The notes below the pieces were generated by a model. That model searched no databases. It was given only the letters and a program-made list of their open reading frames with translations, and was not told the DNA's origin. Shown piece by piece: positions 6,270-43,200 of a stretch of 64,000 bases of DNA. Origin of the DNA: Oscillospiraceae bacterium (GTDB lineage: Bacteria > Bacillota > Clostridia > Oscillospirales > CAG-272); assembly GCA_015064085.1 (NCBI GenBank), contig SVSX01000003.1, positions 9,145 to 73,144 on the forward strand, written 5' to 3'. Positions within the stretch are counted from its first letter, which is position 1, and every line of letters starts with the position of its first letter. Position numbers and translations under genes: made by a program.

Positions 6270-7256
6270 ATGAAGATAAGAGTTGGTATTTACGGTTACG
6301 GAAATCTTGGCAGGGGAGTTGAGAACGCTCTGAAGCAGAATCAGGATATGGAGCTTGTGGCGGTCTTTACGAGACGTCCTCCCGAGACTCTCAAAATATT
6401 CACGGCGGGTGTTCCCGTGGTGTCGGCAGCTTCTGTGCTTGATTACGTGGGGCGCATCGACGTTATGGTGATCTGCGGAGGAAGCGCTACCGACCTGCCC
6501 GAGCAAACACCCTATCTCGCGAGATATTTTTCGGTTATAGACAGCTTCGACACTCACGCGAAGATACCCGAGCATTACGCAAAGGTTGACGCTGCGGCAA
6601 AGGAGGGCGGAAACACGGCTATGATCTCGGTCGGCTGGGACCCCGGTATGTTCTCGCTCAACCGTCTCCTCGGTGAGGCTGTGCTCCCCGACGGAAAGGA
6701 CTATACCTTCTGGGGAAGAGGGGTTAGTCAGGGACACTCGGACGCTATACGCAGAATTGAGGGCGTGGCTGACGCAAAGCAGTATACCATTCCGATAGAT
6801 TCGGCGCTCGAGGCAGTGAGGCGCGGAGAAAATCCTCAGCTTACGGCGCGAGAGAAGCACCTTCGCGAGTGCTTTGTCGTTGCGAAGGAGGGGGCTGACA
6901 AGGAGAGGATCGAGAGAGAGATCAAGGAGATGCCCAACTACTTTGCCGATTACGACACTATTGTTCACTTCATCGACGCTGAGGAGCTGGCACGGGATCA
7001 CAGCGGTATCCCCCACGGCGGCTTTGTTATCCGAAGCGGAAGAACCGGGGCTGAGCTCGAGCACAGTCACATTATCGAATACAGACTCAAGCTCGATTCA
7101 AACCCCGAGTTTACCGCATCGGTCATTGTGGCATACGCGAGAGCGACCTGCAGAATGAAGCGAGAGGGAATGGTCGGCTGTAAAACGGTATTTGACGTTC
7201 CCCCCGCATACCTTTCTCCGAGAAGCTACGGAGAGATAATTTCGACACTTCTTTGA
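6270..7256 (+). CDS. ddh: meso-diaminopimelate D-dehydrogenase
   Basis: N-terminal Rossmann motif MKIRVGIYGYGNLGRG and overall Ddh-like pattern (328 aa). Confidence 0.85.
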   Translation: MKIRVGIYGYGNLGRGVENALKQNQDMELVAVFTRRPPETLKIFTAGVPVVSAASVLDYVGRIDVMVICGGSATDLPEQTPYLARYFSVIDSFDTHAKIPEHYAKVDAAAKEGGNTAMISVGWDPGMFSLNRLLGEAVLPDGKDYTFWGRGVSQGHSDAIRRIEGVADAKQYTIPIDSALEAVRRGENPQLTAREKHLRECFVVAKEGADKERIEREIKEMPNYFADYDTIVHFIDAEELARDHSGIPHGGFVIRSGRTGAELEHSHIIEYRLKLDSNPEFTASVIVAYARATCRMKREGMVGCKTVFDVPPAYLSPRSYGEIISTLL

Positions 7257-7341
7257 CAACAGAATAGATTGTCCGAGATATTGGGCGTAATTACGTGAAA
7301 ACAGCACATAATAAGAAAAAAGATATTTTCAGGAGATTAGT

Positions 7342-8238
7342 ATGAAAAAAATTATTTGCGCGGTTCTTACGGCGATCATCGCCCTTATGGCTCTGTCCTC
7401 CTGCGGCAGCAGAGAGAATGAGTATACTCTCGGAATAGGAGGCAGTGCCGAAGCAAAGACGGCAAACCTCACCTTAGTCGAGACGGTAGCTGCCGTGGTG
7501 CTTGACAGAGAGGGGAAAATAATTCTTTGTCGGGTCGATTCGGTGGATGCAAGGGCTGTCTATCTTGACGGAGCTATTGAGAAGAAGAGCTATAAATCAA
7601 AGGCTGAGCTTGGCGACAGCTACGGAATGCTGAGCCCGGGCGGCTCGGATCTCGCCGAGTGGGACGATCAGGCAAGATTCTTTGAGGACTACGTCGTGGG
7701 CAAAACTATCGACGAGGTGAAGGGAATAAAGAGCGGAGAAGGGGAGCTGGCAAGCGGCTGCACCATTGACGTTTCTCCCTTTATCAAGGCTATCGGCGCG
7801 GCTGTGAGCAGTGAGCGCAAGACGGTATTTAAAGCCAAGGGAGATATTACGCTCGGCGTGGCTATCGACTGCTCTGTGTCAGACAAGGGCGGAAGCGCGG
7901 CTTATACCGCGAATATGTCGGCATCTGTTATAAACGACGGAAAGATAGCGGCGGCGCTCATAGATTCCCGTGAATCGACTATAATAGCCGAGGAGGGAGT
8001 CGGAGTGGAATACAAGCCGTCGAAGACCAAGCTTGAGCTTGGGGATGAATATAATATGGTGGAGTACGGCGGTGCGTCTGCCGAGTGGTACGTTCAGGCG
8101 AAGACCTATGCGGACAGTGCTGTCGGAAAGACAAAAAGTGAGCTTTCGGGACTTGCTACCGAGGGCGTGGCGGGCTGTACTATCGGGGTAGAGGACTACA
8201 AGAAGGTCCTTATCCTCGCTTCCGAACGGGCAAGATGA
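7342..8238 (+). CDS. lipoprotein with two tandem FMN_bind-like repeats (candidate ApbE substrate)
   Basis: Lipobox LSSC. Two internally homologous halves each end in an FMN_bind-like segment (ELASGCTIDVSPFIKAIGAAV and EGVAGCTIGVEDYKKVL). Sits immediately upstream of apbE. Confidence 0.6.
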   Translation: MKKIICAVLTAIIALMALSSCGSRENEYTLGIGGSAEAKTANLTLVETVAAVVLDREGKIILCRVDSVDARAVYLDGAIEKKSYKSKAELGDSYGMLSPGGSDLAEWDDQARFFEDYVVGKTIDEVKGIKSGEGELASGCTIDVSPFIKAIGAAVSSERKTVFKAKGDITLGVAIDCSVSDKGGSAAYTANMSASVINDGKIAAALIDSRESTIIAEEGVGVEYKPSKTKLELGDEYNMVEYGGASAEWYVQAKTYADSAVGKTKSELSGLATEGVAGCTIGVEDYKKVLILASERAR

Positions 8239-8243
8239 TCTTT

Positions 8244-8280
8244 GGGCTGAGTCTTCCGCGATCGAATGACTCAGCCTTTT
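8244..8280 (+). terminator. rho-independent terminator-like hairpin between the lipoprotein gene and apbE
   Basis: GGCTGAGTC (8244-8252) pairs with GACTCAGCC (8267-8275), followed by a T-run. Confidence 0.6.
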
Positions 8281-8294
8281 TATATGGAGTTAAT

Positions 8295-9326
8295 ATGAAA
8301 GCACGTATCATATCGGTCTTTTTGGCGACAGTCCTGCTGTTTTTGACCCTTTTCGGGTGTGGGGCAGAGGCTGAGCCGAGATCAAAAACATATTTTGAAT
8401 ATTTCGACACCGCGAGTGCTATCTATTCCTATGCCGAGGAGTCGGAGGAAAGCTTTATCGGAAACTGTGAAGCCGTGGCGGCGCTCTTTTCCGATTACCA
8501 CAAGCTTTTTGATATTTATTACGAATACTCGGGTGTGAATAATCTTTGTACCGTCAATAAAAACGCGGGTGTTGCCCCCGTCAGTGTGGATATTCGGCTC
8601 ATTGATTTTCTCGAGTATGCCGTCGGTATCTGCAAGGAGTGCGGTCTTGAGACCAATATCGCTATGGGCTCGGTCCTTTCTCTCTGGCACGAGGCTCGGG
8701 AGAATGCCGACGGAGGTGAGGCGCACCTGCCCTCCGAGGCTGAGCTCAGGGCGGCGGGAGAGCACGTGAGCCTTGACGCTATCGTCATAGACAGAGGAGC
8801 GGGAACGGTCTATATTTCCGACGCTGAGGTGTCTATTGACGTGGGCGCTTTGGGAAAGGGCTATGCCGTTATGAAGGCTACCGAGCTTCTGAAGGAGAGA
8901 GGCGCTGACCGTTACGTGCTGAACGTTGGCGGAAATATTTCGGCTATAGGTGAGAAAGCGAACGGCAAGGGCTGGGTGACGGGAATAACAAATCCCGACG
9001 GCGGAGATTTTTCCGCGAGAATAGAGCTTAAGGACGGCTATTGCGTTACCTCGGGAGACTATGAAAGATATTTTGAGGTCGATGGGGTGAGATATCATCA
9101 TATTATTGACAAGGATACTCTGATGCCCGCGAAGCATTTCCGCTCGGTCAGCGTGATCTCTGACGACGGAGCACTTGCCGACGCGCTGTCTACGGCGCTC
9201 TTCTGTATGCCCTATGAGGAGGGAGTGAAGCTTCTTCAGCGCTTTGATGGGGTCGATGCCTTTTGGATATTTTCCGACGGTCAGAGGAGAATGACGGAGG
9301 GGTTTGAAAAAATTACACTGAAATAG
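8295..9326 (+). CDS. apbE: FAD:protein FMN transferase (ApbE family), lipoprotein
   Basis: Start at MKARIIS with a GGAG RBS. Lipobox LFGC. ApbE pattern (AMGSVLSLWH, IDVGALGKGYA, GGNISAIG, VTSGDYERYF, HHIIDKDT). Confidence 0.88.
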   Translation: MKARIISVFLATVLLFLTLFGCGAEAEPRSKTYFEYFDTASAIYSYAEESEESFIGNCEAVAALFSDYHKLFDIYYEYSGVNNLCTVNKNAGVAPVSVDIRLIDFLEYAVGICKECGLETNIAMGSVLSLWHEARENADGGEAHLPSEAELRAAGEHVSLDAIVIDRGAGTVYISDAEVSIDVGALGKGYAVMKATELLKERGADRYVLNVGGNISAIGEKANGKGWVTGITNPDGGDFSARIELKDGYCVTSGDYERYFEVDGVRYHHIIDKDTLMPAKHFRSVSVISDDGALADALSTALFCMPYEEGVKLLQRFDGVDAFWIFSDGQRRMTEGFEKITLK

Positions 9327-9379: not shown

Positions 9380-9408
9380 TTGACAGGGAATAGGAAAAAC
9401 TGTATAAT
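9380..9408 (+). promoter_or_regulatory. consensus sigma-A promoter of the rnf operon
   Basis: TTGACA (9380-9385), 17-nt spacer, TATAAT (9403-9408), about 90 nt upstream of rnfC. Confidence 0.7.
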
Positions 9409-9495: not shown

Positions 9496-10830
9496 ATGCT
9501 CGCATTTCGTTTTTTAGGTAAAACTCATTTGCCACATAATAAAAATACGTCGATGCTTTCTGCGGTGGAAATGCCGCCTCCCGCAGAGGTGCTTATTCCA
9601 TTGCTTCAGCACATAGGCGCGCCCGCAGAGGCTATCGTGAAGAACGGTGACTACGTGAAGGTCGGTCAGAAGATCGCCGAGGCATCGGGATACGTCTCGT
9701 CGCCGATATACGCGTCGGTATCAGGTACTGTCGGAAAGCCCGAGGAGTATCTTCGTGCCGACGGAAGAAAAGTTCCCGCTATAAGAATAGTGTCCGACGG
9801 TGAAATGGCGCTTTTTGAAGAGATAGCTCCTCCCACAGTGTCGGATCTTGACTCGCTGATCCTTGCGGCAAGAGAGTCGGGTGTTGTGGGACTTGGCGGC
9901 GCGGGATTTCCTCTTTCCGTGAAGCTTGACGCTCTGAAAAAGGGAAATATCGACACGGTGGTCTTCAACGGCGCTGAGTGTGAGCCGTATATTACAAGCG
10001 ACACAAGAACTATGATCGATCAGGCCGACAGAATAAAATACGGTCTTGAGCTTATAGAAAAGTACGCGCCTACAGTCAAGAAATTTATTTTTGGAATAGA
10101 GAAAAACAAGCCCGAGGCGATAGCTAAGATGAGGCAGATCTTCTCGGGTTCGGACAAGGTCACGGTGAAGCCTCTTCATCCGAGATATCCTCAAGGCGCT
10201 GAGAAGGTGCTCATATTCAATACCACGGGACGTACAGTACCCGAGGGCAAGCTCCCCGCTGACGTTGGCGTTCTGGTTATGAACGTCAGCACACTTGCGG
10301 CATTCGCGGAATACTGCGAGAGCGGTATGCCCCTTGTCAGCAGGAATATCACTCTCGACGGAGGCGCTGTAGCAAAGCCAATGAATATAAAAGCTCCTAT
10401 AGGAACGGCTATCCACGATATAATCGAGTTTGGCGGCGGTACTAAGGAGAATGTCGGAAAGATACTTCTCGGCGGACCTATGATGGGAAGCGCTGTATAT
10501 TCCTCTGACGAGCCCGTGACAAAGACCACGGGAGCTATCACAGTGCTCGGCATCAAGGAATCGTTACAGCCTACAGAATCCCCCTGTATTCGCTGCGGAA
10601 GGTGCGCGGAATCCTGCCCTCATAACCTGATACCCGACAGCTTTTCAAAGGCTCTTGAGCTTGATAACAAGGAGGAGAGAATAAACCTGCTTGAAAAGAA
10701 CAAGATAATGCTTTGTATGGAGTGCGGCTGCTGCTCCTACGTCTGCCCCGCGGGAAGACCGCTGGTGCAGAACAACAAGCTTGCAAAGGCGGAGTACCGT
10801 GCGCATCTTGCAAGTCTTAAGGATAAATAA
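9496..10830 (+). CDS. rnfC: Rnf electron transport complex subunit C
   Basis: RnfC pattern with an NADH/FMN-binding region (GLGGAGFP) and two C-terminal 4Fe-4S motifs (CIRCGRCAESCP, CMECGCCSYVCP). Confidence 0.92.
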   Translation: MLAFRFLGKTHLPHNKNTSMLSAVEMPPPAEVLIPLLQHIGAPAEAIVKNGDYVKVGQKIAEASGYVSSPIYASVSGTVGKPEEYLRADGRKVPAIRIVSDGEMALFEEIAPPTVSDLDSLILAARESGVVGLGGAGFPLSVKLDALKKGNIDTVVFNGAECEPYITSDTRTMIDQADRIKYGLELIEKYAPTVKKFIFGIEKNKPEAIAKMRQIFSGSDKVTVKPLHPRYPQGAEKVLIFNTTGRTVPEGKLPADVGVLVMNVSTLAAFAEYCESGMPLVSRNITLDGGAVAKPMNIKAPIGTAIHDIIEFGGGTKENVGKILLGGPMMGSAVYSSDEPVTKTTGAITVLGIKESLQPTESPCIRCGRCAESCPHNLIPDSFSKALELDNKEERINLLEKNKIMLCMECGCCSYVCPAGRPLVQNNKLAKAEYRAHLASLKDK

Positions 10831-10845
10831 GGGAAGGAGATAGTA

Positions 10846-11784
10846 ATGGAACATCTGGTCGTAAGCTCGTCACCCCACATACACACGGGAACAAATACGA
10901 GCAAGATAATGCGCGACGTTGTGATCGCACTTTTGCCCGCGGCGGTAGCTTCGGCTCTGCTTTTCGGTCTTAAGGCGCTGGCTATCATACTTGTATCTGT
11001 GGCAAGCGCGGTGCTCTCCGAGTATCTCTTTAACCTTGCGTGTAAGAAAAAACAGACCGTCACCGACCTCAGCGCTGTGGTCACAGGTCTTCTGTTAGCG
11101 CTCAATCTGCCCCTTAAGGTCGAGCTCTGGCAGTGCGCTGTAGGCGCGGCTTTCGGTATCGTTGTGGTAAAATGCTTCTTCGGAGGTATCGGAAAGAACT
11201 TTGCAAACCCCGCTATTGCCGCGAGAGTATTTCTTATAATCGCTTTCGGACAGGTGGCGGGAGGCTCTGCCACAAGATTTGCCGAGCTCGAAAGCGGAGC
11301 AACCCCCCTTGTGGTCATTGAAAGCGGAGAGGGAAGTCTCCCCTCGCTTTTCGAGATGTTTATAGGAAACAGAGGAGGAGCTATAGGTGAGACCTGCGCC
11401 CTCGCTCTGATAATCGGATTTGTCTATCTTCTTGTGAGAAAGGTGATAAGCTGGCATACCCCCGTTTTCTTTGTGGCAACGGTATTTGTGCTTTCGCTTA
11501 TTGTTAAGCAGGATCTTACCCTTGCGCTCTACGAGGTGCTCAGCGGAGGTCTGCTTATCGGCGCTATATTTATGGCGACCGATTACGTTACCTCGCCGAC
11601 TCACAAGACGGGAAAGGTCATCTTTGCCATTGGCTGCGGAATTATCACCATACTTATAAGATTCTGGGGCTCTTACCCGGAGGGCGTTTCCTTTGCGATA
11701 CTCTTTATGAATATCCTCGCGCCCTATATTGAAAAGATAAATATAAAGAAGCCGCTGGGAGGTATAAAAGATGGTAAAAAGTAA
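10846..11784 (+). CDS. rnfD: Rnf complex subunit D (membrane, flavinylated)
   Basis: N-terminus SSSPHIH. Polytopic membrane protein with an NqrB/RnfD pattern and conserved position in rnfCDGEAB order. Confidence 0.9.
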   Translation: MEHLVVSSSPHIHTGTNTSKIMRDVVIALLPAAVASALLFGLKALAIILVSVASAVLSEYLFNLACKKKQTVTDLSAVVTGLLLALNLPLKVELWQCAVGAAFGIVVVKCFFGGIGKNFANPAIAARVFLIIAFGQVAGGSATRFAELESGATPLVVIESGEGSLPSLFEMFIGNRGGAIGETCALALIIGFVYLLVRKVISWHTPVFFVATVFVLSLIVKQDLTLALYEVLSGGLLIGAIFMATDYVTSPTHKTGKVIFAIGCGIITILIRFWGSYPEGVSFAILFMNILAPYIEKINIKKPLGGIKDGKK

Positions 11785-12934
11785 GCTTATGCCAACTATT
11801 GTGCTTTCAGCTATATGCGTCGCGGTGGCGCTTCTCCTTGCGGGGGTCAATACCTTTACCCTGCCGAGGATAGAGGCGGCTCAGGCGGAAAAGGCAAATG
11901 CCGCTCTGATTGAGGTGTTGCCCGGCGGAGGCGATTTCGAGGAGATCCCGATCGAGGGAATGCCCACGGAGGTCACGGCGGCGTACAAGTCGTCAAACGG
12001 AGGATACGTCTTTCAGATGACGGTTACGGGATATAAGCCCGGGCTTGTGATAATGTGCGGAATAGACTCCGACGGAAAGATCGCGGGAGCGAAATTTATT
12101 CAGTCAAACGAGACCCTTTCAGCCGAGGTCGGTCTTGGTGATAAGTTTGTGGGATACGACAGAGAGTCGATAACTACAGACATAATCGCAGGACCTACCG
12201 CGAAGCTTACCACAAACGCGTACTATCAGGCTATTGAGGCGGCGCTTAACGCCTTTGAGATCGCTAACGGAGGAAGCGTTGATCTTCGCACTCCCGAGGA
12301 GATACTGCAGGATAACTGCAATGACGCTATGGGCAGCGAGGGAGTCAGATATGAAAAATGGTTTGCCTATGAGGCGCTTGGCGAGTCCACAGAGATATAT
12401 ACTGCCGAGGACGGCAGCGCTGTGGTCCTTGTCGGAGAGACCTACGTAGGTATAAAAAATGACGGAAGCTTCGCTAAGGAGAGTGAGCTTTCGGCAGAGA
12501 TCAAGGAAAAGGCAAAAGCCGCTTACGGTATATACTCATCGGCTGAGCTTACCGAGGTCGTAAAGCCTGAGGGTGTGAGCTCCGACGTTGAGAAGATCTA
12601 CGTCAGCGGAAGCGGAAATTATCTCTTTGAGCTTCGGGCGCGGGGCTACGGAATAGTTGGAGACAAGTACGCCTCGGGCGAGTTCATAAAGCTTAAGCTT
12701 GTGATCGGTAAGGACGGAAGGATAATGTCTATCCTCACCACGTATCAGAAGGAATCTCCGAACGTTGGTGACGTCACGATAGATCCCGAATACTACGAGC
12801 AGTATAACGGAAAGGGCGCTTCGGACTACGAGAGCGTTGCTACAGTGTCGGGCGCTACCGTTTCTACCACGGGATATAAGAACGCAATAAAGATAGCCTT
12901 TGAGGCTTATGAAATACTGAAGGGAGGAAACTGA
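11771..12934 (+). CDS. rnfG: Rnf complex subunit G, about twice the usual length, with two FMN_bind-like modules
   Basis: N-terminal TM anchor. The first module ends IIAGPTAKLTTNAYYQAIEAAL (degenerate). The second ends with canonical VATVSGATVSTTGYKNAIKIAF. 387 aa. Confidence 0.85.
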   Translation: MVKSKLMPTIVLSAICVAVALLLAGVNTFTLPRIEAAQAEKANAALIEVLPGGGDFEEIPIEGMPTEVTAAYKSSNGGYVFQMTVTGYKPGLVIMCGIDSDGKIAGAKFIQSNETLSAEVGLGDKFVGYDRESITTDIIAGPTAKLTTNAYYQAIEAALNAFEIANGGSVDLRTPEEILQDNCNDAMGSEGVRYEKWFAYEALGESTEIYTAEDGSAVVLVGETYVGIKNDGSFAKESELSAEIKEKAKAAYGIYSSAELTEVVKPEGVSSDVEKIYVSGSGNYLFELRARGYGIVGDKYASGEFIKLKLVIGKDGRIMSILTTYQKESPNVGDVTIDPEYYEQYNGKGASDYESVATVSGATVSTTGYKNAIKIAFEAYEILKGGN

Positions 12935-12935
12935 A

Positions 12936-13637
12936 ATGTCGGGAACTAAAAAGCTTTCTATCCTTCTTCAGGGAATAATCAAGGAAAACCCCGTTCTGAT
13001 ACTCGTTCTCGGAACGTGTCCCACACTTGCAACGACCTCCTCTGTGATATCGGCTCTGTCTATGGGAATTGCGGCAACCTTTGTGCTTGTAGGCTCGAAC
13101 GCCGTTATTTCAGCACTCAGAAACGTGATCCCCGACACTGTCAGAATTCCTTGCTATATAGTCATCATAGCGGGATTCGTTACGGCACTGCAGATGCTGC
13201 TTCAGGCATATCTGCCGTCTATTTACGATATGTTGGGTGTATATCTCGCGCTTATTGTGGTAAACTGTATTATACTCGGAAGGGCTGAGATGTACGCGAG
13301 AAAAAACAGCGTTGTTGATTCTGCTCTCGACGGACTCGGAATGGGTCTTGGATTCCTTTTCGCACTGCTCGTTATGTCTACCATTCGCGAGGTCATCGGC
13401 GCGGGTTCATTTGCGGGAATTGCAATACCCTTTGTTGAAAACTATAAGATCCCGATACTCACTCAAGCCCCCGGAGGATATCTTGTTTTCGGTATCGTTA
13501 TAGCTACCATGAACAAGCTGACCTCAAAGCGCGGCGGAGTGAAGAGAAAATCCTTCTCCTGCGAGGGCTGTCCATCGGCTGAGGGCTGCTCGGGCGGTTG
13601 CAATGCGGAGAAGGGAGAGGAGGAAGCAGACGTATGA
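12936..13637 (+). CDS. rnfE: Rnf complex subunit E with Cys-rich C-terminal tail
   Basis: NqrD/RnfE polytopic pattern (NPVLILVLGTCPTLATT). Extra tail SCEGCPSAEGCSGGCNAEKGEEEADV. Confidence 0.9.
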   Translation: MSGTKKLSILLQGIIKENPVLILVLGTCPTLATTSSVISALSMGIAATFVLVGSNAVISALRNVIPDTVRIPCYIVIIAGFVTALQMLLQAYLPSIYDMLGVYLALIVVNCIILGRAEMYARKNSVVDSALDGLGMGLGFLFALLVMSTIREVIGAGSFAGIAIPFVENYKIPILTQAPGGYLVFGIVIATMNKLTSKRGGVKRKSFSCEGCPSAEGCSGGCNAEKGEEEADV

Positions 13638-14230
13638 TTTATAAGGAATTGATACTGATACTTATGGGTGGAGTTCTTGTTAACAACTACGTTCTTCAAC
13701 AGTTCCTCGGAATTTGTCCCTTCCTCGGAGTATCAAAAAAATTCGATCAGGCAAGCGGAATGGGAATAGCGGTAACCTTCGTAATGCTCTTTGCGACGGC
13801 GGCGACCTGGCCTATCTACAGCTATCTGCTGAAGCCTATGAAGCTTGAATTTTTGCAGATAATCGTTTTCATACTTGTTATAGCGACTCTTGTGCAGTTC
13901 GTTGAAATAATACTGAAGCGTTTTATTCCCGCCCTGTTCAAGGCGCTGGGTGTATATCTTCCCCTTATAACCACAAACTGCGCGGTTCTTGGTGTCACAC
14001 TTAACAACATAACCGACGGATACGGATTTCTTGAGTCTATGGTATCCTCGCTTGGAGTCGGACTTGGCTTCTGGCTTGCGATGGTGCTCTTTGCGGGAGT
14101 CAGATCGAGAATAGAGCCTAAAGCTCCCACCAAGGCACTCAGAGGTCTTCCCGTGACGTTGGCGGCGGCATCCATAGTCGCGATGGCATTCTACGGCTTC
14201 TCGGGCGTGGTCGAAAATTTATTGGCATAG
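13634..14230 (+). CDS. rnfA: Rnf complex subunit A
   Basis: Start MIYKELIL overlaps the rnfE stop (ATGA). NqrE/RnfA pattern (NNYVLQQFLGICPFLGVS). Confidence 0.9.
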   Translation: MIYKELILILMGGVLVNNYVLQQFLGICPFLGVSKKFDQASGMGIAVTFVMLFATAATWPIYSYLLKPMKLEFLQIIVFILVIATLVQFVEIILKRFIPALFKALGVYLPLITTNCAVLGVTLNNITDGYGFLESMVSSLGVGLGFWLAMVLFAGVRSRIEPKAPTKALRGLPVTLAAASIVAMAFYGFSGVVENLLA

Positions 14231-14240
14231 AGGTGAGTTT

Positions 14241-15053
14241 ATGATAATATTAATTCCCGTTCTTATCTGTCTGGGAATTGCCGTTGTGTGTGCCGTGATA
14301 CTTACGGTGACCTCGGTATTTTTCTCGGTCAAGGAAGACGAGAAGGCGGTCCGTCTGCGTGACTGTCTTGCGGGGGCTAACTGCGGCGCTTGCGGATACA
14401 GCGGCTGTGACGGATATGCCAAGGCGCTTTACGACGGAAGCTGCGACAAGGTCAACCTTTGTACGCCCGGCGGTGACGCGGTGGCAAAGGAGCTTTCGGA
14501 AATACTCGGAGTTGAGGCTCAGGACGTGGTTGAGCAGGTGGCTTACGTTGCCTGTAACGGAAATTGCGACGCTATTCCGAGGAGATATAACTATCAGGGA
14601 ATACAGAGCTGCAAGGCGGCAAATATGAACTATTCGGGAGATAAGTTCTGTACATACGCTTGTCTTGGATACGGAGACTGCGCGGCGGTCTGCCCCAACG
14701 ATGCCATCGAGATAAAGGACGGCGTCGCTCAGGTAATAAGCAGAAAATGTATCGGCTGCGGAATGTGCGCAAGGGCTTGTCCCAACGGTATAATCCACCT
14801 TATTGCCGACGTTTCACGCGTTGCTGTCGTTTGCTCAAACAAGGACAAGGGCGCTCTCACGAGAAAATATTGCAACAGTGGCTGTATCGGCTGCGGAATG
14901 TGCAAACGCCACTGTCCCGAGGGAGCTATTTCGATCGAGAACAATCTTGCGGTGATAGATTACGAAAAATGCTCGAGGTGCGGAAAATGTACCGAGGTAT
15001 GCCCCGTAGGCTGTATCAAGGAAGCCGACTATACGGGCGCAACTAAACACTGA
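14241..15053 (+). CDS. rnfB: Rnf complex subunit B (polyferredoxin)
   Basis: N-terminal TM helix, then a CxxCxxxxC cluster (CGACGYSGC) and several CxxCxxCxxxCP ferredoxin motifs. Confidence 0.9.
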   Translation: MIILIPVLICLGIAVVCAVILTVTSVFFSVKEDEKAVRLRDCLAGANCGACGYSGCDGYAKALYDGSCDKVNLCTPGGDAVAKELSEILGVEAQDVVEQVAYVACNGNCDAIPRRYNYQGIQSCKAANMNYSGDKFCTYACLGYGDCAAVCPNDAIEIKDGVAQVISRKCIGCGMCARACPNGIIHLIADVSRVAVVCSNKDKGALTRKYCNSGCIGCGMCKRHCPEGAISIENNLAVIDYEKCSRCGKCTEVCPVGCIKEADYTGATKH

Positions 15054-15073: not shown

Positions 15074-15442
15074 ATGGAGAAAAAAAGAAGGATATTTTAC
15101 GACGTTCTTTTGATCTCGGTATTGCTCTGCCTTTCGCTTTGCCTTCTGCTCGTGACCTTTCTTACCAAAAGGAGCGGAGAGCTGGTTTGTGTTGAGGTAA
15201 ACGGTGAGGCTGTGGCTGAGTACCGTCTTTCTGAGGATGGGGAATACTCGCTTAACGGTGGGACAAATCTGCTGAAGATCGAGAACGGCGAGGCGTATCT
15301 CACGTATGCCGACTGTCCTGACAAGACCTGCGTGAAAACGGGAAGGATCAGATACGTAGGGCAGAGCATTGTCTGCCTTCCGAACAAGGTGACCGTTGTG
15401 GTCCGCGGAAGCGGCAGTGGCGGTGTGGATCTTGTGTCATAA
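15074..15442 (+). CDS. NusG domain II-containing membrane-anchored protein
   Basis: N-terminal TM helix, then a small beta domain with CPDKTCV...IVCLPNKV, typical of the NusG_II/DUF1312 family that pairs with Gx transporters. Confidence 0.65.
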   Translation: MEKKRRIFYDVLLISVLLCLSLCLLLVTFLTKRSGELVCVEVNGEAVAEYRLSEDGEYSLNGGTNLLKIENGEAYLTYADCPDKTCVKTGRIRYVGQSIVCLPNKVTVVVRGSGSGGVDLVS

Positions 15443-15451
15443 GGAGGGAAT

Positions 15452-15949
15452 ATGGACAGAATAAAAAAGACGGTGCTTCTGGCAATGATGTCTGCCGTGG
15501 CGCTGGCTCTCTCGTTTCTTGAGTCCCAGATACCGACCTTTATCGCGATTCCCGGTGTCAAGCTCGGACTTGCGAATATCGCCGTGATCTTTGTGCTCTA
15601 CAAGCTTGGCGCGAAGGAGGCATTTGCCGTATCATTTGTGAGACTTATCGCCGTATTTTTACTTTTTGGCGGTGTGATGCCGCTTATATACAGTATTGCG
15701 GGTGCGCTTCTCAGCCTTTGTGTGATGCTGATATTAAAAGGACTTCCCACCTTTTCCGAGATCGGAGTCAGCGTGGCTGGGGGCGTTGCCCACAATATAG
15801 CTCAGGTGCTTGTGGCGGTATTCCTTCTTGACAGCTCGGCAATATTCCTTTATCTTCCCGCGCTGCTGCTTTCGGGAACGGTAGCGGGAGTGGTGATAGG
15901 CATTATTTCCGCTATACTTGTTAAAAGAGTTAAAATAAAAACGCTTTGA
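15452..15949 (+). CDS. Gx transporter family protein (heptaprenyl diphosphate synthase component I-like, PF07456-type)
   Basis: 165-aa five-TM protein. Pattern LSFLESQIP...PGVKLGLANI...GGVAHNIAQV. Confidence 0.7.
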   Translation: MDRIKKTVLLAMMSAVALALSFLESQIPTFIAIPGVKLGLANIAVIFVLYKLGAKEAFAVSFVRLIAVFLLFGGVMPLIYSIAGALLSLCVMLILKGLPTFSEIGVSVAGGVAHNIAQVLVAVFLLDSSAIFLYLPALLLSGTVAGVVIGIISAILVKRVKIKTL

Positions 15950-15976
15950 CTGACGAGCAGTCAAAGCGTTTTTTTA
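15941..15976. terminator. bidirectional rho-independent terminator between the rnf-associated operon and the convergent transketolase genes
   Basis: 12-bp perfect stem ACGCTTTGACTG / CAGTCAAAGCGT with an A-run on the left and a T-run on the right. Confidence 0.8.
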
Positions 15977-15987
15977 TGTTATTAAAA

Positions 15988-16926
15988 TTACTTCTTAAGA
16001 GCGATAGCAGCCTTAGCCTTCTCAACGATGTGAGCAGGTGTGAGACCGTACAGCTCAAGGAGAGGCTGGACCTTACCCGAACGGCCGAACTTATCCTCGA
16101 TACCGACGCGGAGTACGGGAGCGGGGCAACCTTCGCAAACTGCCTCGGATACAGCAGAACCGAGACCGCCCATAAGGTTGTGCTCCTCAGCGGTAACGAT
16201 AGCGCCTGTTTCCTTAGCCGCCTTAACGATGATATCCTTATCAAGAGGCTTGATGGTGTGGATATTGATAACTCTTGCGGAGATACCCTCCTCAGCGAGA
16301 AGCTTTGCAGCCTCAAGAGCCATATTTACCATAATACCTGTTGCAACGATGGTAACGTCCTTACCGTCAGCCATCTGAACGCCCTTACCGAGCTCGAACT
16401 TGTAATCCTCAGCGTTTACGTTCGGAACAGCCATACGTCCGAATCTGAGGTAAACAGGACCGTTTATGTTAAGAGCTGCCTCAACTGCCGCCTTTGCCTC
16501 AATAGCGTCTGCGGGGTTGATAACTACCATACCGGGGATAGAACGCATAAGAGCGATATCCTCAAGGCACTGGTGTGTTGCTCCGTCCTCACCGACGGTG
16601 ATACCCGCGTGGGTAGCGCCGATCTTAACGTTGAGGTGGGGGTAACCGATCGAGTTACGAACCTGCTCGAAGGCTCTTCCTGCCGCGAACATAGCGAAGG
16701 AGGATGCGAAAACCGGCTTGCCTGTGGTTGCGATACCTGCCGCAACGCTTACCATATTGCCCTCTGCGATTCCGCAATCAAAGAATCTCTCGGGGAATTT
16801 CTTCTTGAATACACCTGTTTTTGTTGCTGCCGCAAGGTCTGCGTCCATAACAACGAAATCATACTTATCGCCAAGCTCAGCAAGGGCTGCGCCGTAGGCT
16901 TCTCTTGTAGCTATTTTATCTGCCAT
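15988..16926 (-). CDS. transketolase, C-terminal (pyrimidine-binding) subunit
   Basis: 312-aa protein with transketolase Pyr and C-terminal domain pattern (FFDCGIAEGNMVSVAAG). Adjacent to the N-terminal subunit gene. Confidence 0.9.
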   Translation of the reverse strand: MADKIATREAYGAALAELGDKYDFVVMDADLAAATKTGVFKKKFPERFFDCGIAEGNMVSVAAGIATTGKPVFASSFAMFAAGRAFEQVRNSIGYPHLNVKIGATHAGITVGEDGATHQCLEDIALMRSIPGMVVINPADAIEAKAAVEAALNINGPVYLRFGRMAVPNVNAEDYKFELGKGVQMADGKDVTIVATGIMVNMALEAAKLLAEEGISARVINIHTIKPLDKDIIVKAAKETGAIVTAEEHNLMGGLGSAVSEAVCEGCPAPVLRVGIEDKFGRSGKVQPLLELYGLTPAHIVEKAKAAIALKK

Positions 16927-16938
16927 GATAGTTCCTCC

Positions 16939-17778
16939 TTAAAGCGTTGCCTTGATATCGGCTACTGCTGTTGCGTACTGCTCGTCGTTGGGAGCTGCTC
17001 CGTGCCAGCTTACCTGATTTTCCATAAAGGATACGCCCTTACCCTTTGTTGTGTTAGCGATAATTGCGGTGGGCTTACCCTTTACAGTCTTAGCTGCTGC
17101 GAGAGCTGCCGCGATCTGATCGAAATCGTGACCGTCGATTGTGATGACGTTCCAGCCGAATGCCTCAAATTTCTTATCGTGAGGAGCGGGGTTCATAACC
17201 TCTGCGATAGGACCGTCGATCTGGAGACCGTTGAGGTCAACGAAGATGCAGAGATTGTCGAGCTTGTAGTGAGCGGCAAACATAGCTGCCTCCCAAACCT
17301 GACCCTCCTGTGTCTCACCGTCGCCGAGGATGGCGTAGGTTCTGTAGTCCTTGCCGTCGATCTTAGCCGCGAGAGCCATTCCGCAGGCTGCCGAGATGCC
17401 GAGACCGAGAGATCCCGAGGTCATATCAACACCGGGAGTCCCCTTCATATCGGGGTGACCCTGAAGGTAGGAGTCAACGTGACGGAATGTCTTGAGGTCC
17501 TCCTTGGGGAAGAATCCCTTTTCAGCGAGGATCGCGTAGAGCGCGGGCGCTGTGTGTCCCTTGGAGAGAACGAGTCTGTCTCTGTTGGGATCTTTGGGGT
17601 TCTTGGGGTCAACGTTCATTTCTTCAAAATAGAGATATGTGATGATATCTGCGATTGAGAGAGAGCCGCCGGGATGTCCCGAGCTTGCGCTGTGGACCTC
17701 CTCCAGAATGTCCAGACGGACATCTGCAGCGATCTTCTTTAAACGGTTAAGTTTTGCTTGTTCCATTTTTTTAATCAC
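16939..17778 (-). CDS. transketolase, N-terminal (thiamine diphosphate-binding) subunit
   Basis: SGHPGGSLS and GDGETQEG ThDP-binding motifs. 279 aa. Confidence 0.9.
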   Translation of the reverse strand: MIKKMEQAKLNRLKKIAADVRLDILEEVHSASSGHPGGSLSIADIITYLYFEEMNVDPKNPKDPNRDRLVLSKGHTAPALYAILAEKGFFPKEDLKTFRHVDSYLQGHPDMKGTPGVDMTSGSLGLGISAACGMALAAKIDGKDYRTYAILGDGETQEGQVWEAAMFAAHYKLDNLCIFVDLNGLQIDGPIAEVMNPAPHDKKFEAFGWNVITIDGHDFDQIAAALAAAKTVKGKPTAIIANTTKGKGVSFMENQVSWHGAAPNDEQYATAVADIKATL

Positions 17779-40021: not shown

Positions 40022-40251
40022 ATCGTTACAAAATTGCGGCAAAAACGATCCTGCGGGCTGTTGAAAGCCCGATTTCGTTTTGCCCGTTTAACAATGCAAA
40101 AAAGCATTGGTTAGTTTCGACACCGTAGCGTTTCTGCCGTATGCCGACGGTATACGCGCGTTCCGCGCGGTCGCGCTCGGTGTCAAAGCCCTTTGACGTG
40201 TCTTCCCACGTCTCTGGGTCAATTCTCAAATTCAGCAGGAGGAAAATTCAA

Positions 40252-43200
40252 ATGAGAAAGACGAAATTTCAAAGAATAACCGCTTTTGCGCTGGCTTTGG
40301 TATTTCTGCTTTGCGGTGGTGTTGGTATCAGCGCGGCTGACGTTGGATCATCCGTTACCGACACATCCTTGAGCGACATTAAGGAATTGCTGAACTCAAT
40401 TTCTTATGAGACCTACAGGGAAAACAACGCGGCAGTTCCGCGCGCAGAGGCAGAGGTGGTTATTGACGCTGCTGCGAATTATGTATTCGTGGCTGCTGAC
40501 GGCACAACTGTTTATACACAGGATTCGGTTATCGAAGAGGGTGTAGACAAGAAGAACGTAGCCTATAAGACGGAGTACGACGGCGTAAGCGGTCTGTATG
40601 TTCCCGGTATGGGTACGGTCTCCTGGACGACGGATCAGATCAAGACCGCTGCTAAGTACAGCATTGAGATCGAATACTATCCCGTTCAGAACAAGGCAGC
40701 TTCCATAGAGAGAGTATTTATGGTAAACGGCGCTGTTCCCTTTGCGGAGGCACGTTATCTGACTATCTCCAAGGTATGGAAGAACGTATATGAGGACGGC
40801 GTCTTCAAGCTCGAAGAGGGCGAGAGCGCAGAGTCTTACGTTACTAAGGCTGCGGAGCTTGGCATTAATGCTGTTTCCGAGGCGAGAAGCGACGGAACTT
40901 ACATTATATATAAAATGCCCTCCGTATGGACAAAGGATGTATCCGAGCTTGTTGATTCTCAGACTATCCGCTTCTTCAAGGAAGACATAGATAGAAACGA
41001 GATCAGAGCAAGCCTTGAGCAGGCTCCCGTATGGACCTCTTACGAGTTCCGTGATGCGAACGGCTTCTATCAGGAGTCCTTCGAGTTTGTTCTTGAGCCT
41101 GACGAGAACGGTCTTGTTACCATCTCTCTTGAGTCGGTAAACGAGCCTATCGCTATATCGAAGATCAAGCTTGTTCCTCATACGGGATATATGACCTATG
41201 AGGAGTATATCAAGCAGTACGAGAACGAGCCCGCGGGAACAGATAGAGTAAAGATAGAGGCAGAGTATTTTGCTAACGCTTCTTCTCAGACGATCTATCC
41301 TCTCGAGGACAAAGCGAGTGCTATCACCTCTCCTACGGCTACCGACAGAACTGTTCTCAACACCATAGGCGGTGAGAAGTGGCAGACTGCGGGTCAGTGG
41401 GTAACATATCAGATGCAGGTTGATGCCAGCGGTATGTACGAGATCGCGGCGCGTTACCGCCAGGCGGTGCTCGACGGTATGTTCGTATCCCGTTCACTTC
41501 ACATTTACAGTGATTCCACTGTTGCTCCCGGCGAAAAAGGATATTACAACGGCATTCCCTTTGCTGAAGCAGCTAACCTTCGCTTTGGATATTCTTCGGA
41601 TTGGCAGTCCGATACAGTTAACGACGGTGAGATAGACACATTCAAGTTCTATTTCAAGGAAGGCGTCGTTTACACGATCAAGATTGAGGTTACTCTTGGA
41701 AGTATGGGAGCGATCGTTAATACGGTCCAGAACTCTCTTGACTCGATCAACCAGGATTACCTTAATATACTTAAGCTCACAGGATCTGAGCCCGACGATA
41801 CCCGTGACTACGGCTTCTCAAGAGTAATGCCCGACACGATGGTCGACCTTATCATCCAGTCCCGCACACTTACTAAGGTTGCTGAGCAGCTCGCTGAGGT
41901 AGCGGGAGACAAGAGCTCGATGACCGCTTCTCTTGAAAAGGTCGCAAGACTTCTTGATACTATGGGTAAGGATGAGGACGAGGTCGCTAAGAACCTTGAA
42001 CAGCTCAAATCCAATATCGGTACTCTTGGTACGTGGCTCGGCGATGCGAAGACCCAGCCTCTCCAGCTTGACTTTATCGTCGTTCAGGGTGACGGACAGG
42101 AGCTCCCCGAGGCAGAAGCAAACTTCTTTAAGGCTATGGTTTACGAGTTCACGAGATTCTTCCAGAGCTTCTTCAGAAACTACGACCGTATGGGCGCTCT
42201 TGAGGAGATAGACGAGGAGGATTCCGTTGAGGTATGGCTTGCGTACGGACGTGACCAGACACAGGTTATCCGAAGCCTTATCAACAACGACTTCACACCT
42301 AAGACGAACGTTGCTGTTGACCTTAAGCTCGTTGCGGGCGGTACACTGCTTCCTTCCATTCTTTCGGGAATGGGTCCTGAGGTCTATATAGGACTCGGAC
42401 AGTCTGACGTTATCAACTACGCTATTAGAGGCGCGCTCCTTCCTATTGATAATCAGGCGACCTTTGATGACGCGATCAAGGAGTTCAACGAGGCGGCAAT
42501 GATCGTTCTCGGAATTGAGAACTCCGCAGGTGAGTTCCATTACTATGGACTCCCCGAAACACAGGCGTTTAATATGATGTTCGTTCGTGAGGACGTTCTC
42601 GCGGACCTTGAGATAGAGATCCCCAGAACATGGGATGACGTTCTTGAGGCTATCCCGATACTTCAGGCGAACAATATGATGATCGGTATGCACACCGACT
42701 ACAAGGTATTCCTTTACCAGATGAACGGTGAGCTTTATGCCGACAACGGAATGAGAATCAACCTCGATTCCAACGTTGCGCTTAACGCGTTCAACACAAT
42801 GTGTAACATGTTTACGATGTACTCATTCCCCTACAAGTATGACTTTGCAAACCGTTTCAGAACGGGTGAAATGCCTATCGGATTCGCGGCTTACGCAGCA
42901 ACCTACAACCAGCTCAAGGTATTCGCAACCGAGATCGAAGGTCTTTGGGGCTTCTACCCGATGCCCGGTTACGAGCAGGCTGACGGAAGCATCAACAATG
43001 TTTCGGTTTCCTCAGTATCCGCGATCGTTATGCTTACAGGCTGCCAGGATGAGGCTGGCGCTTGGGAATTTATGAAGTGGCATTCGGGCGCGTCCTGCCA
43101 GATCGAGTACTCCAACGAGATGGTTGCTCTTATCGGTCCTTCCGCTAAGCACTCTACCGCTAACATTGCGGCTCTTGAGAGTATGCCTTGGACGAATGAG

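What the first reader, a model, noticed from the sequence alone, without database searches (positions are those of the whole stretch)
7342..8238. Lipoprotein with two FMN_bind-like repeats whose flavinylation motif reads G-C-T instead of G-A-T, directly upstream of apbE
The protein is an internal duplication. Compare ELGDSYGMLSPGGSDLAEWDDQARFFEDYVVGKTIDEV...LASGCTIDV with ELGDEYNMVEYGGASAEWYVQAKTYADSAVGKTKSEL...VAGCTIGV. Each half ends where FMN_bind domains carry the S-G-A-T sequence whose Thr is flavinylated by ApbE. RnfG in this same window has the canonical VSGATVS. Here both repeats have Cys at the Ala position. The next gene is a lipoprotein ApbE, so this is probably an extracytoplasmic double-flavinylated redox protein. 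The adjacent Cys could change flavin chemistry or form an additional linkage. This motif variant is not one I know to be described.
Basis: partly seen in the sequence, partly recalled or inferred. Interest (0 to 1): 0.6.

Follow-up and report, generated by a model that had tools for sequence, protein, structure and literature searches.

The report
Two-flavin lipoprotein beside ApbE and Rnf
This gene encodes a membrane-anchored protein made of two divergent flavin-binding domains that the neighbouring enzyme ApbE most likely loads with flavin; it belongs to a large, recently noticed but untested family, and its odd Gly-Cys-Thr attachment motif is typical of that family, not a special chemistry.

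Summary
ORF 7342-8238 encodes a 298-aa lipoprotein that is an internal duplication (halves 40% identical, E 6e-18). Each half ends in G-C-T, a lipoprotein ApbE follows, and RnfG in the window reads VSGATVS.

Pfam's FMN_bind model does not hit it. Remote homology is still solid:
- Family profiles hit PDB 2KZX, a PF04205 member (E 3.6e-9).
- hhalign against RnfG FMN_bind domains gives 91% probability.
- Both align the Thr of G-C-T on the flavinylated Thr of S-G-A-T.

The family is large (2104 clusters at 50% identity) and has 2, 4 or 6 domains. It matches the 'FMN-bind2' subtype that Huang et al. described in 2024 from AlphaFold models. Cys at -1 is about 95% conserved in this clade. The sister clade has Val there, and some proteins mix Cys and Val. 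Cys therefore looks like a structural substitute for Ala, not a second flavin link.

ApbE lies directly downstream in 80 of 86 related loci. The pair sits beside rnfCDGEAB-eetA-eetB, or in Listeria-type extracellular electron transfer loci at the PplA position.

Best reading: a PplA-like, doubly flavinylated extracytoplasmic electron carrier. It is a new member of a known kind, and flavinylation is untested.

The parts
7253..7282 (+). sigma-70-like promoter candidate (TTGACA-18-GATATT) upstream of the lipoprotein gene
   Evidence: Consensus scan, 10 of 12 matches. This is a pattern match only.
7331..7335 (+). ribosome-binding site AGGAG, 6 nt before the ATG
   Evidence: Read from the sequence.
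7342..8238 (+). CDS of the 298-aa two-domain FMN-bind2-type lipoprotein (PplA-like)
   Evidence: ORF. There are 141 close homologues and 2104 clusters at 50% identity in the superfamily. The AF2 model has pLDDT 94 and pTM 0.88.
7342..7404 (+). lipoprotein signal peptide with lipobox L-S-S-C; Cys21 (7402-7404) is the lipidated residue
   Evidence: Sequence. Cys21 is at least 90% conserved.
7411..7815 (+). repeat 1 (residues 24-158): three long beta-strands, then helices
   Evidence: BLASTP of the two halves, E 6e-18. Single-domain AF2 model, pLDDT 91.6. Domain profile A2.
7753..7764 (+). site 1 motif S138-G139-C140-T141; T141 is the predicted FMN phosphoester acceptor
   Evidence: Aligned on the SGAT of 2KZX and of RnfG. 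C in 115/121, T/S in 119/121.
7816..8235 (+). repeat 2 (residues 159-298)
8170..8181 (+). site 2 motif A277-G278-C279-T280; T280 is the predicted acceptor, with Glu274 at -6
   Evidence: C in 116/121, T/S in 121/121, Glu at -6 in 89/121.
8244..8282 (+). hairpin (GGGCUGAGUC...GACUCAGCC) plus U-run between the lipoprotein gene and apbE: possible intrinsic terminator or attenuator
   Evidence: RNA fold dG -18.8 kcal/mol, z -2.96, 0 of 200 shuffles as stable. The consensus scan missed it because of its loop limit.
8295..9326 (+). apbE (FAD:protein FMN transferase), a lipoprotein (lipobox L-F-G-C)
   Evidence: PF02424, E 5.9e-63. An ApbE gene lies directly downstream of the homologue in 80/86 loci.
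9380..9408 (+). perfect sigma-70-like promoter (TTGACA-17-TATAAT) ahead of rnfC
   Evidence: 12 of 12 matches. This is a pattern match only.
9496..15053 (+). rnfC (9496-10830), rnfD (10846-11784), rnfG (11771-12934, double-length), rnfE (12936-13637), rnfA (13598-14230), rnfB (14241-15053)
   Evidence: Pfam hits. The synteny is conserved.
15074..15442 (+). eetA-like gene (NusG_II, PF07009)
   Evidence: E 1.5e-27. The eetA-eetB pairing is described in PMC9973259.
15452..15949 (+). [quoted passage not shown]
   Evidence: E 3e-39. Function is taken from PMC9973259.

Best explanation
The gene encodes a lipid-anchored, extracytoplasmic electron-carrier protein. It is built from two divergent FMN-binding domains of the 'FMN-bind2' subtype, which pack into one pseudo-symmetric unit.

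Proposed steps:
1. After export and lipidation at Cys21, the neighbouring lipoprotein ApbE transfers the FMN moiety of FAD onto Thr141 and Thr280 as phosphoesters. The FAD is exported by the EetB-type ECF subunit encoded at the end of the cluster.
2. The resulting di-flavoprotein works like Listeria PplA. It takes electrons at the outer face of the membrane and passes them to extracytoplasmic or extracellular acceptors. The source here is most plausibly the extracytoplasmic flavins of the adjacent Rnf complex, whose RnfG is itself a two-domain version.
3. The Cys in G-C-T is the family's usual small hydrophobic replacement for the canonical Ala at -1. The sister clade has Val there. The Cys is not a second flavin ligand.

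Shown here: gene, duplication, lipobox, motif conservation, remote homology to FMN_bind, conserved synteny. Inferred: flavinylation, electron-carrier role, Rnf as donor.
For: Remote homology:
- Profile A1 hits 2KZX at E 3.6e-9, and domain profile A2 hits it at E 5.7e-8, with a-g-C-T aligned on S-G-A-T.
- The 2KZX fragment scores 25.6 bits against PF04205, above the cut-off of 22. PMC4348036 lists 2KZX as a PF04205 member.
- hhalign of A2 against 39 RnfG C-terminal domains gives probability 90.9%, E 1.1e-6, with Thr on Thr.

The site:
- The acceptor is Thr/Ser in 119/121 and 121/121 sequences.
- It sits in the loop just before the last helix of the AF2 models.

Compartment and enzyme:
- Both this protein and ApbE have lipoboxes.
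- ApbE lies directly downstream in 80/86 loci. Rnf lies within 10 kb in 24/25 loci with full flanks, and eetB in 19/25.

PplA-like role:
- In L004, L005 and L087 the homologue is the only candidate flavinylation substrate in loci holding Ndh2-like, polyprenyl synthase, UbiA (not found in L087), eetA, eetB and apbE genes.

FMN-bind2 fit:
- No Pfam or InterPro signature, domains of 135-165 aa with long strands, and copy numbers of 2 (133 proteins), 4 (9), 6 (2) and 5 (1).

Tolerance at -1:
- An A-to-V substitution still gave about 50% flavinylation in K. pneumoniae fumarate reductase (review PMC12052999).
- Val occurs at -1 in 9/44 RnfG N-terminal domains.
Against: - PF04205 does not hit the protein or any of 41 homologues at E<=1.
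- The motif departs from D-x-x-[ST]-G-A-[ST] at -3 (Ala/Ser) and at -1 (Cys). The acid at -6 is only partly conserved at site 1.
- No FMN-bind2 protein has been shown experimentally to carry flavin in anything I could read.
- A hairpin with a U-run separates the gene from apbE, and rnfC has its own promoter-like site. Co-transcription is therefore not shown.
- Rnf needs ApbE for RnfG and RnfD anyway, so the Rnf linkage could be indirect.
Confidence: 0.72

Rival explanations
1. The conserved Cys is functional. It could tune the flavin, form a second (thioether) bond to the isoalloxazine giving a bicovalent FMN, or act as a redox-active or persulfide thiol next to the flavin.
For: Cys is about 95% conserved at both sites across homologues that share only 30-55% identity. 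It makes up 257 of 319 domains among the top cluster representatives. Cysteinyl-flavin links exist in other flavoproteins (general knowledge; mentioned in PMC10339131).
Against: Val replaces Cys throughout the EET-linked Lachnospiraceae clade. Fifteen proteins mix residues at -1, for example P0239 alternates ASVTV and ASCTV. The residue aligns with the canonical Ala. It lies next to the phosphoester Thr, at the phosphate end of FMN and far from C6/C8-alpha of the ring (inference from NqrC-type geometry). No paper mentions it.
Confidence: 0.08
2. The protein is not a terminal electron carrier. It is an accessory factor of extracytoplasmic flavinylation, for example a flavin/FAD-handling partner that receives cofactor from the EetA/EetB exporter and presents it to ApbE, or an assembly factor for RnfG/RnfD.
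For: The gene's tightest and most invariant neighbour is apbE (80/86 loci, same order and strand), whether Rnf lies upstream, downstream or is replaced by Ndh2. [quoted passage not shown]
Against: The near-invariant Thr/Ser at the aligned acceptor position is what a substrate needs, not what a carrier needs. Multi-copy versions with 4-6 domains fit electron relay better. In Listeria no such factor is required beyond FmnA, EetB and FmnB.
Confidence: 0.12
3. The repeats are not flavin domains at all. They would be an IscU/NifU-like fold whose conserved Cys binds a metal or an Fe-S cluster.
For: The best Foldseek PDB hits of the single-domain model are IscU chains (E 6e-3, prob about 1.0, TM 0.40). 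hhalign against E. coli IscU aligns AGCTI on IHCSI (Cys106) and VVGKTxxEV on VKGKSLDEA (E 1.3e-3, but probability only 18%).
Against: IscU Cys37 and Cys63 have no Cys counterparts. Repeat 2 has a single conserved Cys. Val replaces the Cys in a whole clade. The protein is an exported lipoprotein. Sequence evidence for FMN_bind is orders of magnitude stronger. The profile does not find IscU in the PDB at E<=10.
Confidence: 0.03

Closest known systems
'FMN-bind2' domain proteins (Huang, Meheust, Barquera & Light 2024, mSystems; exemplar NTW96865.1, Erysipelotrichaceae, 2 domains; WP_312031774.1, Hujiaoplasma, 6 domains)
   Same: There is no InterPro or Pfam signature. The domains are larger than the ~120-aa FMN-bind1, with an extended beta-sheet. 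Copy numbers are even (2, 4, 6). The two-domain unit is confidently packed and has two predicted flavinylation sites.
   Different: I could not obtain the exemplar sequences, so identity with that group is inferred from its defining features. The paper does not mention the [AS][GS][CV][TS] motif, the apbE adjacency or the Rnf/EET context, and it shows no flavinylation experiment for this subtype.
PplA (Lmo2637) of the Listeria monocytogenes flavin-based extracellular electron transfer system
   Same: Both are surface lipoproteins with two FMN-binding domains, encoded next to an ApbE-type transferase (FmnB) and together with eetA/eetB. Relatives of the window protein sit at the PplA position in Ndh2/DMK-type EET loci.
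   Different: In this window Rnf replaces Ndh2 and the quinone-synthesis genes. Sequence relatedness to Lmo2637 could not be tested, and the motif has Cys where the consensus has Ala.
PDB 2KZX (Clostridium thermocellum, single-domain PF04205 protein, NMR, apo)
   Same: It is the only solved structure found by sequence. It shares Y-x-M-x-x-Y-G-G-A-x-A-E-W-x-x-Q-A and the C-terminal helix, and its S-G-A-T aligns on a-g-C-T.
   Different: It is a single domain of 131 aa with the canonical D-A-I-S-G-A-T. It reaches the Pfam threshold whereas the window protein does not.
RnfG / NqrC FMN_bind domains (PF04205)
   Same: hhalign gives 91% probability over the G-K...[SGAT]...helix segment. Both are extracytoplasmic and depend on ApbE, and RnfG is encoded in the same cluster.
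   Different: Only about 40 columns align. RnfG and NqrC are membrane-anchored subunits of ion-pumping complexes with S-G-A-T, whereas this is a free-standing lipoprotein with a paired-domain architecture.

Membership tests
Pfam FMN_bind (PF04205) / ApbE-flavinylated FMN-binding domain | Significant match to the PF04205 HMM | tested here: not met
   No Pfam family at E<=1 for the protein. None of the 42 family members hits FMN_bind.
Pfam FMN_bind (PF04205) / ApbE-flavinylated FMN-binding domain | Detectable homology to bona fide members | tested here: met
   The family profile hits 2KZX at E 3.6e-9 and 5.7e-8. 2KZX is a PF04205 member. hhalign against RnfG C-terminal domains gives probability 90.9%, E 1.1e-6.
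Pfam FMN_bind (PF04205) / ApbE-flavinylated FMN-binding domain | Ser/Thr acceptor at the end of the motif, just before the C-terminal helix | tested here: met
   T141 and T280 align on the SGAT Thr. T/S is present in 119/121 and 121/121 sequences. The site lies in a loop before the last helix.
Pfam FMN_bind (PF04205) / ApbE-flavinylated FMN-binding domain | Full consensus D-x-x-[S/T]-G-A-[S/T] | tested here: not met
   The family consensus is [DE/x]-x-x-A-[GS]-C-[TS]. The -3 residue is Ala in 107/121, and the -1 residue is Cys in about 95%.
Pfam FMN_bind (PF04205) / ApbE-flavinylated FMN-binding domain | Extracytoplasmic location with a cognate ApbE | tested here: met
   Both proteins have lipoboxes. 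ApbE is adjacent in 80/86 loci.
Pfam FMN_bind (PF04205) / ApbE-flavinylated FMN-binding domain | Covalently bound FMN (phosphoester) | not testable with these tools
   This needs co-expression with ApbE, UV-SDS-PAGE and mass spectrometry.
FMN-bind2 subtype (Huang et al. 2024) | Enlarged domain (~160 aa) with an extended beta-sheet relative to FMN-bind1 | tested here: met
   Domains are 135-165 aa. They have three strands of 11-17 residues followed by helices.
FMN-bind2 subtype (Huang et al. 2024) | Even number of domains per protein | tested here: met
   Copy numbers are 2 (133 proteins), 4 (9), 6 (2) and 5 (1). In one search they are 2 (217), 4 (12), 3 (5) and 1 (1).
FMN-bind2 subtype (Huang et al. 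2024) | Beta-sheet faces of neighbouring domains pair into a pseudo-symmetric two-flavin unit | tested here: inconclusive
   The two-domain model has pTM 0.88 and pLDDT 94, which implies confident inter-domain packing. Coordinates could not be inspected.
FMN-bind2 subtype (Huang et al. 2024) | Sequence similarity to the exemplars NTW96865.1 / WP_312031774.1 | not testable with these tools
   Only accession numbers are given. The sequences could not be retrieved.
PplA-type EET lipoprotein (Listeria) | Lipoprotein with two flavinylation sites beside an ApbE/FmnB gene | tested here: met
   The sites are predictions.
PplA-type EET lipoprotein (Listeria) | Encoded in a locus with ndh2, DMK synthesis genes, eetA and eetB | tested here: not met
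   The window has eetA, eetB and apbE but Rnf instead of Ndh2/DMK genes. Relatives in L004 and L005 do sit in such loci, and L087 holds most of the set.
PplA-type EET lipoprotein (Listeria) | Sequence homology to Lmo2637 | not testable with these tools
IscU/NifU Fe-S scaffold | Three conserved Cys cluster ligands | tested here: not met
   Only the Cys106 position aligns with a Cys. The Cys63 position aligns with Met and Cys37 is unaligned. Val replaces the Cys in the sister clade.
IscU/NifU Fe-S scaffold | Fold similarity | tested here: inconclusive
   Foldseek gives E 6e-3, TM 0.40 and rmsd about 6 A. hhalign probability is 18%.

The most novel reading that the evidence does not exclude
The lipoprotein, ApbE and EetA/EetB, together with an Rnf complex whose RnfG is itself a two-domain version, may form a quinone-independent, Rnf-fed extracellular electron-transfer branch in uncultured gut and rumen Oscillospiraceae, Acutalibacteraceae and Christensenellaceae. 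Electrons from ferredoxin or NADH would leave the cell via RnfG flavins and then the two flavins of this protein. A widespread FMN-bind2 family of more than 2000 clusters, with a non-canonical [AS][GS][CV][TS] ApbE motif, would be the missing PplA equivalent that Pfam-based surveys could not see.
Probability: 0.3. Interest if true: 0.65.

Novelty: new member of a known kind. Interest (0 to 1): 0.38.

Why it matters
Surveys of extracytosolic flavinylation were built on Pfam accessions. This family has no Pfam model, so its roughly 2000 clusters, mostly from uncultured gut and rumen Clostridia, are invisible to them and are annotated 'hypothetical protein'.

Three things would follow if ApbE is shown to accept [AS][GS][CV][TS]:
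- The working definition of the flavinylation motif would widen.
- There would be grounds for a new profile model.
- A concrete candidate would exist for how Rnf-containing fermenters pass electrons to the outside.

As it stands, this is a well-supported annotation of a known type, not a new mechanism.

Tried and rejected
- **Direct family scans.** Pfam and NCBIfam scans of the protein and of 42 homologues gave no FMN_bind hit, only lipoprotein signal-peptide noise.
- **Foldseek against the PDB.** Neither the two-domain model nor the single-domain model matched an FMN_bind structure. The best hits were IscU at TM 0.40.
- **IscU reading.** I considered it and rejected it as a function.
- **Genome scan.** It was redone with the closer alignment A4.
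- **ORF 15946-17658.** I first took this 570-aa ORF for a possible cluster member because it seemed to recur near homologues. It is a spurious antisense frame over a split transketolase.
- **Plasmid search.** The protein search returned one unannotated Acetoanaerobium record.
- **Light et al. 2018.** The paper on PplA sites is not held.
- **Extra gene in L008.** The gene between the homologue and apbE is an unrelated minus-strand ORF rich in Cys motifs (apparently radical-SAM/SPASM-like, judged by eye; no family scan run).
- **Rest of the window.** Ten further large ORFs showed no extracellular reductases or other flavinylation genes.
- **Unused search.** The third large homologue search was left unused because the FMN_bind link was already established.
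Full report
**Observation**

The ORF at 7342-8238 (+) is real and well formed. It has AGGAG 6 nt upstream of the ATG, a promoter-like site at 7253-7282, and encodes a 298-aa product. The product begins with a lipoprotein signal (MKKIICAVLTAIIALMALSSC, lipobox L-S-S-C).

The two halves align by BLASTP over 128 columns at 40% identity, E 6e-18, so the internal duplication is far beyond chance. The motifs are S138-G-C-T141 (nt 7753-7764) and A277-G-C-T280 (nt 8170-8181).

The next gene is ApbE (PF02424, E 5.9e-63). Its true start is the ATG at 8295, preceded by GGAG, not the 8235 start listed by the ORF finder. It has its own lipobox (L-F-G-C). RnfG (11771-12934) carries VSGATVS inside a PF04205 match.

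**Is it an FMN_bind domain?**

Pfam-A gives no family at E<=1 for this protein, and none of 42 aligned family members hits FMN_bind. NCBIfam sees only signal-peptide noise. The relationship appears at profile level instead:
- A profile of 42 full-length homologues (A1) finds PDB 2KZX at E 3.6e-9. A profile of 34 single repeats (A2) finds it at E 5.7e-8. 2KZX is the only significant match among the 177,635 distinct PDB sequences.
- That alignment places 'a-g-C-T-I' exactly on 'S-G-A-T-I' and shares the Y-x-M...A-E-W-x-x-Q-A block.
- The aligned 2KZX fragment scores 25.6 bits against PF04205, above the cut-off of 22. Borshchevskiy et al. list 2KZX among the PF04205 structures (PMC4348036).
- Independently, hhalign of A2 against 39 RnfG C-terminal domains collected from related loci gives probability 90.9%, E 1.1e-6. 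Again 'AgCTI' aligns on 'sGATv'.

AlphaFold2 models are confident: pLDDT 94 and pTM 0.88 for the whole protein, and pLDDT 91.6 for one repeat. Each repeat has three long antiparallel strands followed by helices, and the G-C-T lies in the loop before the last helix. This matches the 'minimal scaffold' of FMN_bind, a three-stranded sheet plus two helices.

**The motif**

The counts in 121 aligned homologues are as follows:

| Position | Site 1 | Site 2 |
|---|---|---|
| -1 residue | Cys 115, Val 4 | Cys 116, Val 5 |
| Acceptor | Thr 92, Ser 27 | Thr 116, Ser 5 |
| -2 residue | Gly 82, Ser 36 | Gly 109, Ser 11 |
| -3 residue | Ala 107 | Ala 107 |
| -6 residue | Glu 34, Asp 33, Ala 24 | Glu 89 |

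It is not special to this protein, and the Cys is not indispensable. A second search seeded with the most distant members returned more than 5500 proteins, mostly Lachnospiraceae, whose motif is [AS]-S-V-[TS]-[IV]. Among the 145 best cluster representatives, the 319 domains have C 257, V 41 and A 12 at -1. Fifteen proteins mix residues at -1, for example P0239 with ASVTV/ASCTV/ASVTV/ASCTV.

Val also occurs at -1 in 9 of 44 RnfG N-terminal domains. An Ala-to-Val change in a model substrate still allowed about 50% flavinylation (Bertsova et al. 2019, as summarised in PMC12052999).

The simplest reading is that -1 is a small hydrophobic, probably buried position in which Ala, Cys and Val are interchangeable.

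**What family is it?**

The family is large. It has 141 close homologues. At 50% identity, 2104 clusters match at E<=1e-3 and 831 at E<=1e-30. None carries a Pfam domain in the precomputed annotation. The source names are 'hypothetical protein', with one UniRef 'FMN-binding protein' for Mobilitalea sibirica. Domain copy numbers are 2 (133 proteins), 4 (9), 6 (2) and 5 (1).

This matches the 'FMN-bind2' subtype that Huang, Meheust, Barquera and Light described in 2024 from AlphaFold models. They report a larger domain with an extended beta-sheet, and usually two or four copies whose sheets pair into a pseudo-symmetric two-flavin unit. They found these domains by BLAST, and their exemplars lack an InterPro ID (PMC11334425). 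I could not retrieve their exemplar sequences, so the identification rests on those defining features. I found no later paper on FMN-bind2 and no flavinylation experiment for it.

**Context**

The window reads:
- lipoprotein (7342-8238)
- apbE (8295-9326)
- rnfC, D, G, E, A, B (9496-15053)
- eetA-like NusG_II gene (15074-15442)
- eetB-like PF07456 gene (15452-15949)
- a convergent split transketolase on the minus strand

I collected 86 related loci, 80 from one genome per species and 6 from exact look-ups. ApbE is the next gene on the same strand in 80 of them, and three of the six exceptions have under 1.6 kb of downstream sequence. Among the 25 loci with at least 9 kb on both sides, 24 have rnf genes within 10 kb and 19 have eetB. 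The lipoprotein-apbE pair lies either upstream of rnfC or downstream of eetB.

In three loci (L004, L005, L087) the same pair sits in a Listeria-type extracellular electron transfer locus. These loci hold a ~695-aa NADH dehydrogenase-like protein, polyprenyl synthase, UbiA (not found in L087), eetA and eetB. The homologue is the only candidate flavinylation substrate there, so it occupies the PplA position.

Rivera-Lugo et al. showed that EetB (PF07456) is the ECF substrate-binding subunit for FAD export needed for PplA flavinylation. They also reported that eetB colocalises with eetA in 3328 genomes, with apbE in 2169, and with Rnf in 572 Clostridia genomes (PMC9973259). The neighbourhood is therefore already known. 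What those Pfam-based surveys could not label is this lipoprotein.

The carriers are almost all uncultured gut and rumen Clostridia, including Oscillospiraceae, Acutalibacteraceae, Christensenellaceae and Lachnospiraceae. The window protein itself is identical to MBE6596227.1 from a Ruminococcaceae/Oscillospiraceae MAG.

**Mechanism proposed**

Shown here:
- an exported, lipid-anchored two-domain protein
- remote homology to FMN_bind, with a conserved Thr/Ser at the acceptor position
- an obligatory ApbE neighbour in the same compartment
- an FAD-export gene in the cluster

Inferred:
- ApbE attaches FMN to Thr141 and Thr280.
- The di-flavoprotein relays electrons at the outer membrane face as PplA does.
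- The donor here is the extracytoplasmic flavin of Rnf. RnfG in these organisms is a two-domain version, a type that Meheust et al. suggested gives Rnf a second, outward electron path.

The Rnf coupling is the weakest step. Rnf itself needs ApbE, so the adjacency could be indirect. The lipoprotein gene also has its own promoter-like site and is followed by a hairpin with a U-run (dG -18.8 kcal/mol, z -2.96), and rnfC has a perfect -35/-10 match.

**Rivals**

1. *Functional Cys (0.08).* Its high conservation in this clade argues for it. The Cys/Val exchange and its position at the phosphate end of the cofactor argue against it.
2. *Accessory or flavin-handling factor for ApbE (0.12).* The tighter link to apbE than to any electron source argues for it. 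The conserved acceptor residue and the multi-domain relatives argue against it.
3. *IscU-like metal or cluster binding (0.03).* It was suggested by Foldseek (E 6e-3, TM 0.40) and by an intriguing but weak hhalign match that puts the Cys on IscU Cys106 (probability 18%). Two of the three IscU ligands are absent, the protein is exported, and Val replaces the Cys in a whole clade.

**Novelty and score**

It is a new member of a known kind: an FMN-bind2, PplA-like ApbE substrate in an already reported eetB-apbE-Rnf neighbourhood.

Two points appear unreported in the literature I could search. One is the family-wide departure from S-G-A-T to [AS][GS][CV][TS]. The other is the near-obligatory lipoprotein-apbE pairing next to Rnf. 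Both are worth a bench test, because Pfam-based censuses miss this whole family. Interest 0.38.

The most novel reading not excluded is an Rnf-fed, quinone-independent extracellular electron-transfer branch in gut Oscillospiraceae (probability about 0.3, interest about 0.65 if true).

Noticed in passing
window 11771-12934 (rnfG), N-terminal half around residues 136-147: RnfG is double-length (387 aa) with two FMN_bind-like halves. In 43 homologues from related loci the N-terminal half mostly reads [AS]-G-A-T-x-[TS]. That pattern suggests doubly flavinylated RnfGs, although Pfam scored only the C-terminal half strongly. The window copy instead reads A-G-P-T-A-K-L-T, with Pro at -1 and a 2-residue insertion, so its first site may be degenerate.
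   Followed up: partly
window 8244-8282: A stable hairpin followed by UUUUU lies between the lipoprotein stop codon and the apbE start (dG -18.8 kcal/mol, z -2.96). It may be an intrinsic terminator or attenuator splitting a conserved gene pair. The consensus terminator scan missed it because of its loop-length limit.
   Followed up: partly
window 15946-17658 (+) versus 15991-16926 (-) and 16942-17778 (-): The 570-aa plus-strand ORF is a Cys-rich nonsense frame. It lies antisense to a split transketolase (Transketolase_N, and Transket_pyr plus Transketolase_C) on the minus strand. Its apparent 'homologues' near the lipoprotein in other loci are the same antisense artefact.
   Followed up: yes
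window 7411-7815 (repeat 1 model) and alignment A2: Foldseek's best PDB matches for one repeat are IscU Fe-S scaffold chains (TM 0.40). hhalign aligns VVGKTxxEV...AGCTI with IscU VKGKSLDEA...IHCSI (probability 18%). This could hint at a deep FMN_bind/IscU fold relationship, or it could be chance.
   Followed up: partly
window 7528-7530 (Cys63, strand 3 of repeat 1): A further Cys in the motif G-K-I-x-x-C-R-[IVL]-D is conserved in 105 of 121 homologues. The equivalent position in repeat 2 is Ala. Its role is unknown.
   Followed up: no
window 15074-15949: eetA-like (NusG_II) and eetB-like (PF07456) genes close the rnf cluster. This is consistent with the published FAD-export role for extracytosolic flavinylation in Firmicutes. 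NCBIfam has no model for either gene.
   Followed up: partly
window 40141-43677 (+) and 43704-44648 (+): An 1179-aa ORF and a 315-aa ORF have no Pfam match at E<=1e-5. They sit beside ABC-permease genes and a DUF5696 protein of 1216 aa. They were not examined further.
   Followed up: no
L008 10982-12082 (-), also L011 and L012: In the closest species-level relatives (51-53% identity) there is a gap of about 1.4 kb between the lipoprotein gene and apbE. In L008 it holds a minus-strand 366-aa ORF with Cys motifs that look radical-SAM/SPASM-like by eye (no family scan run). The pair therefore tolerates an insertion.
   Followed up: partly
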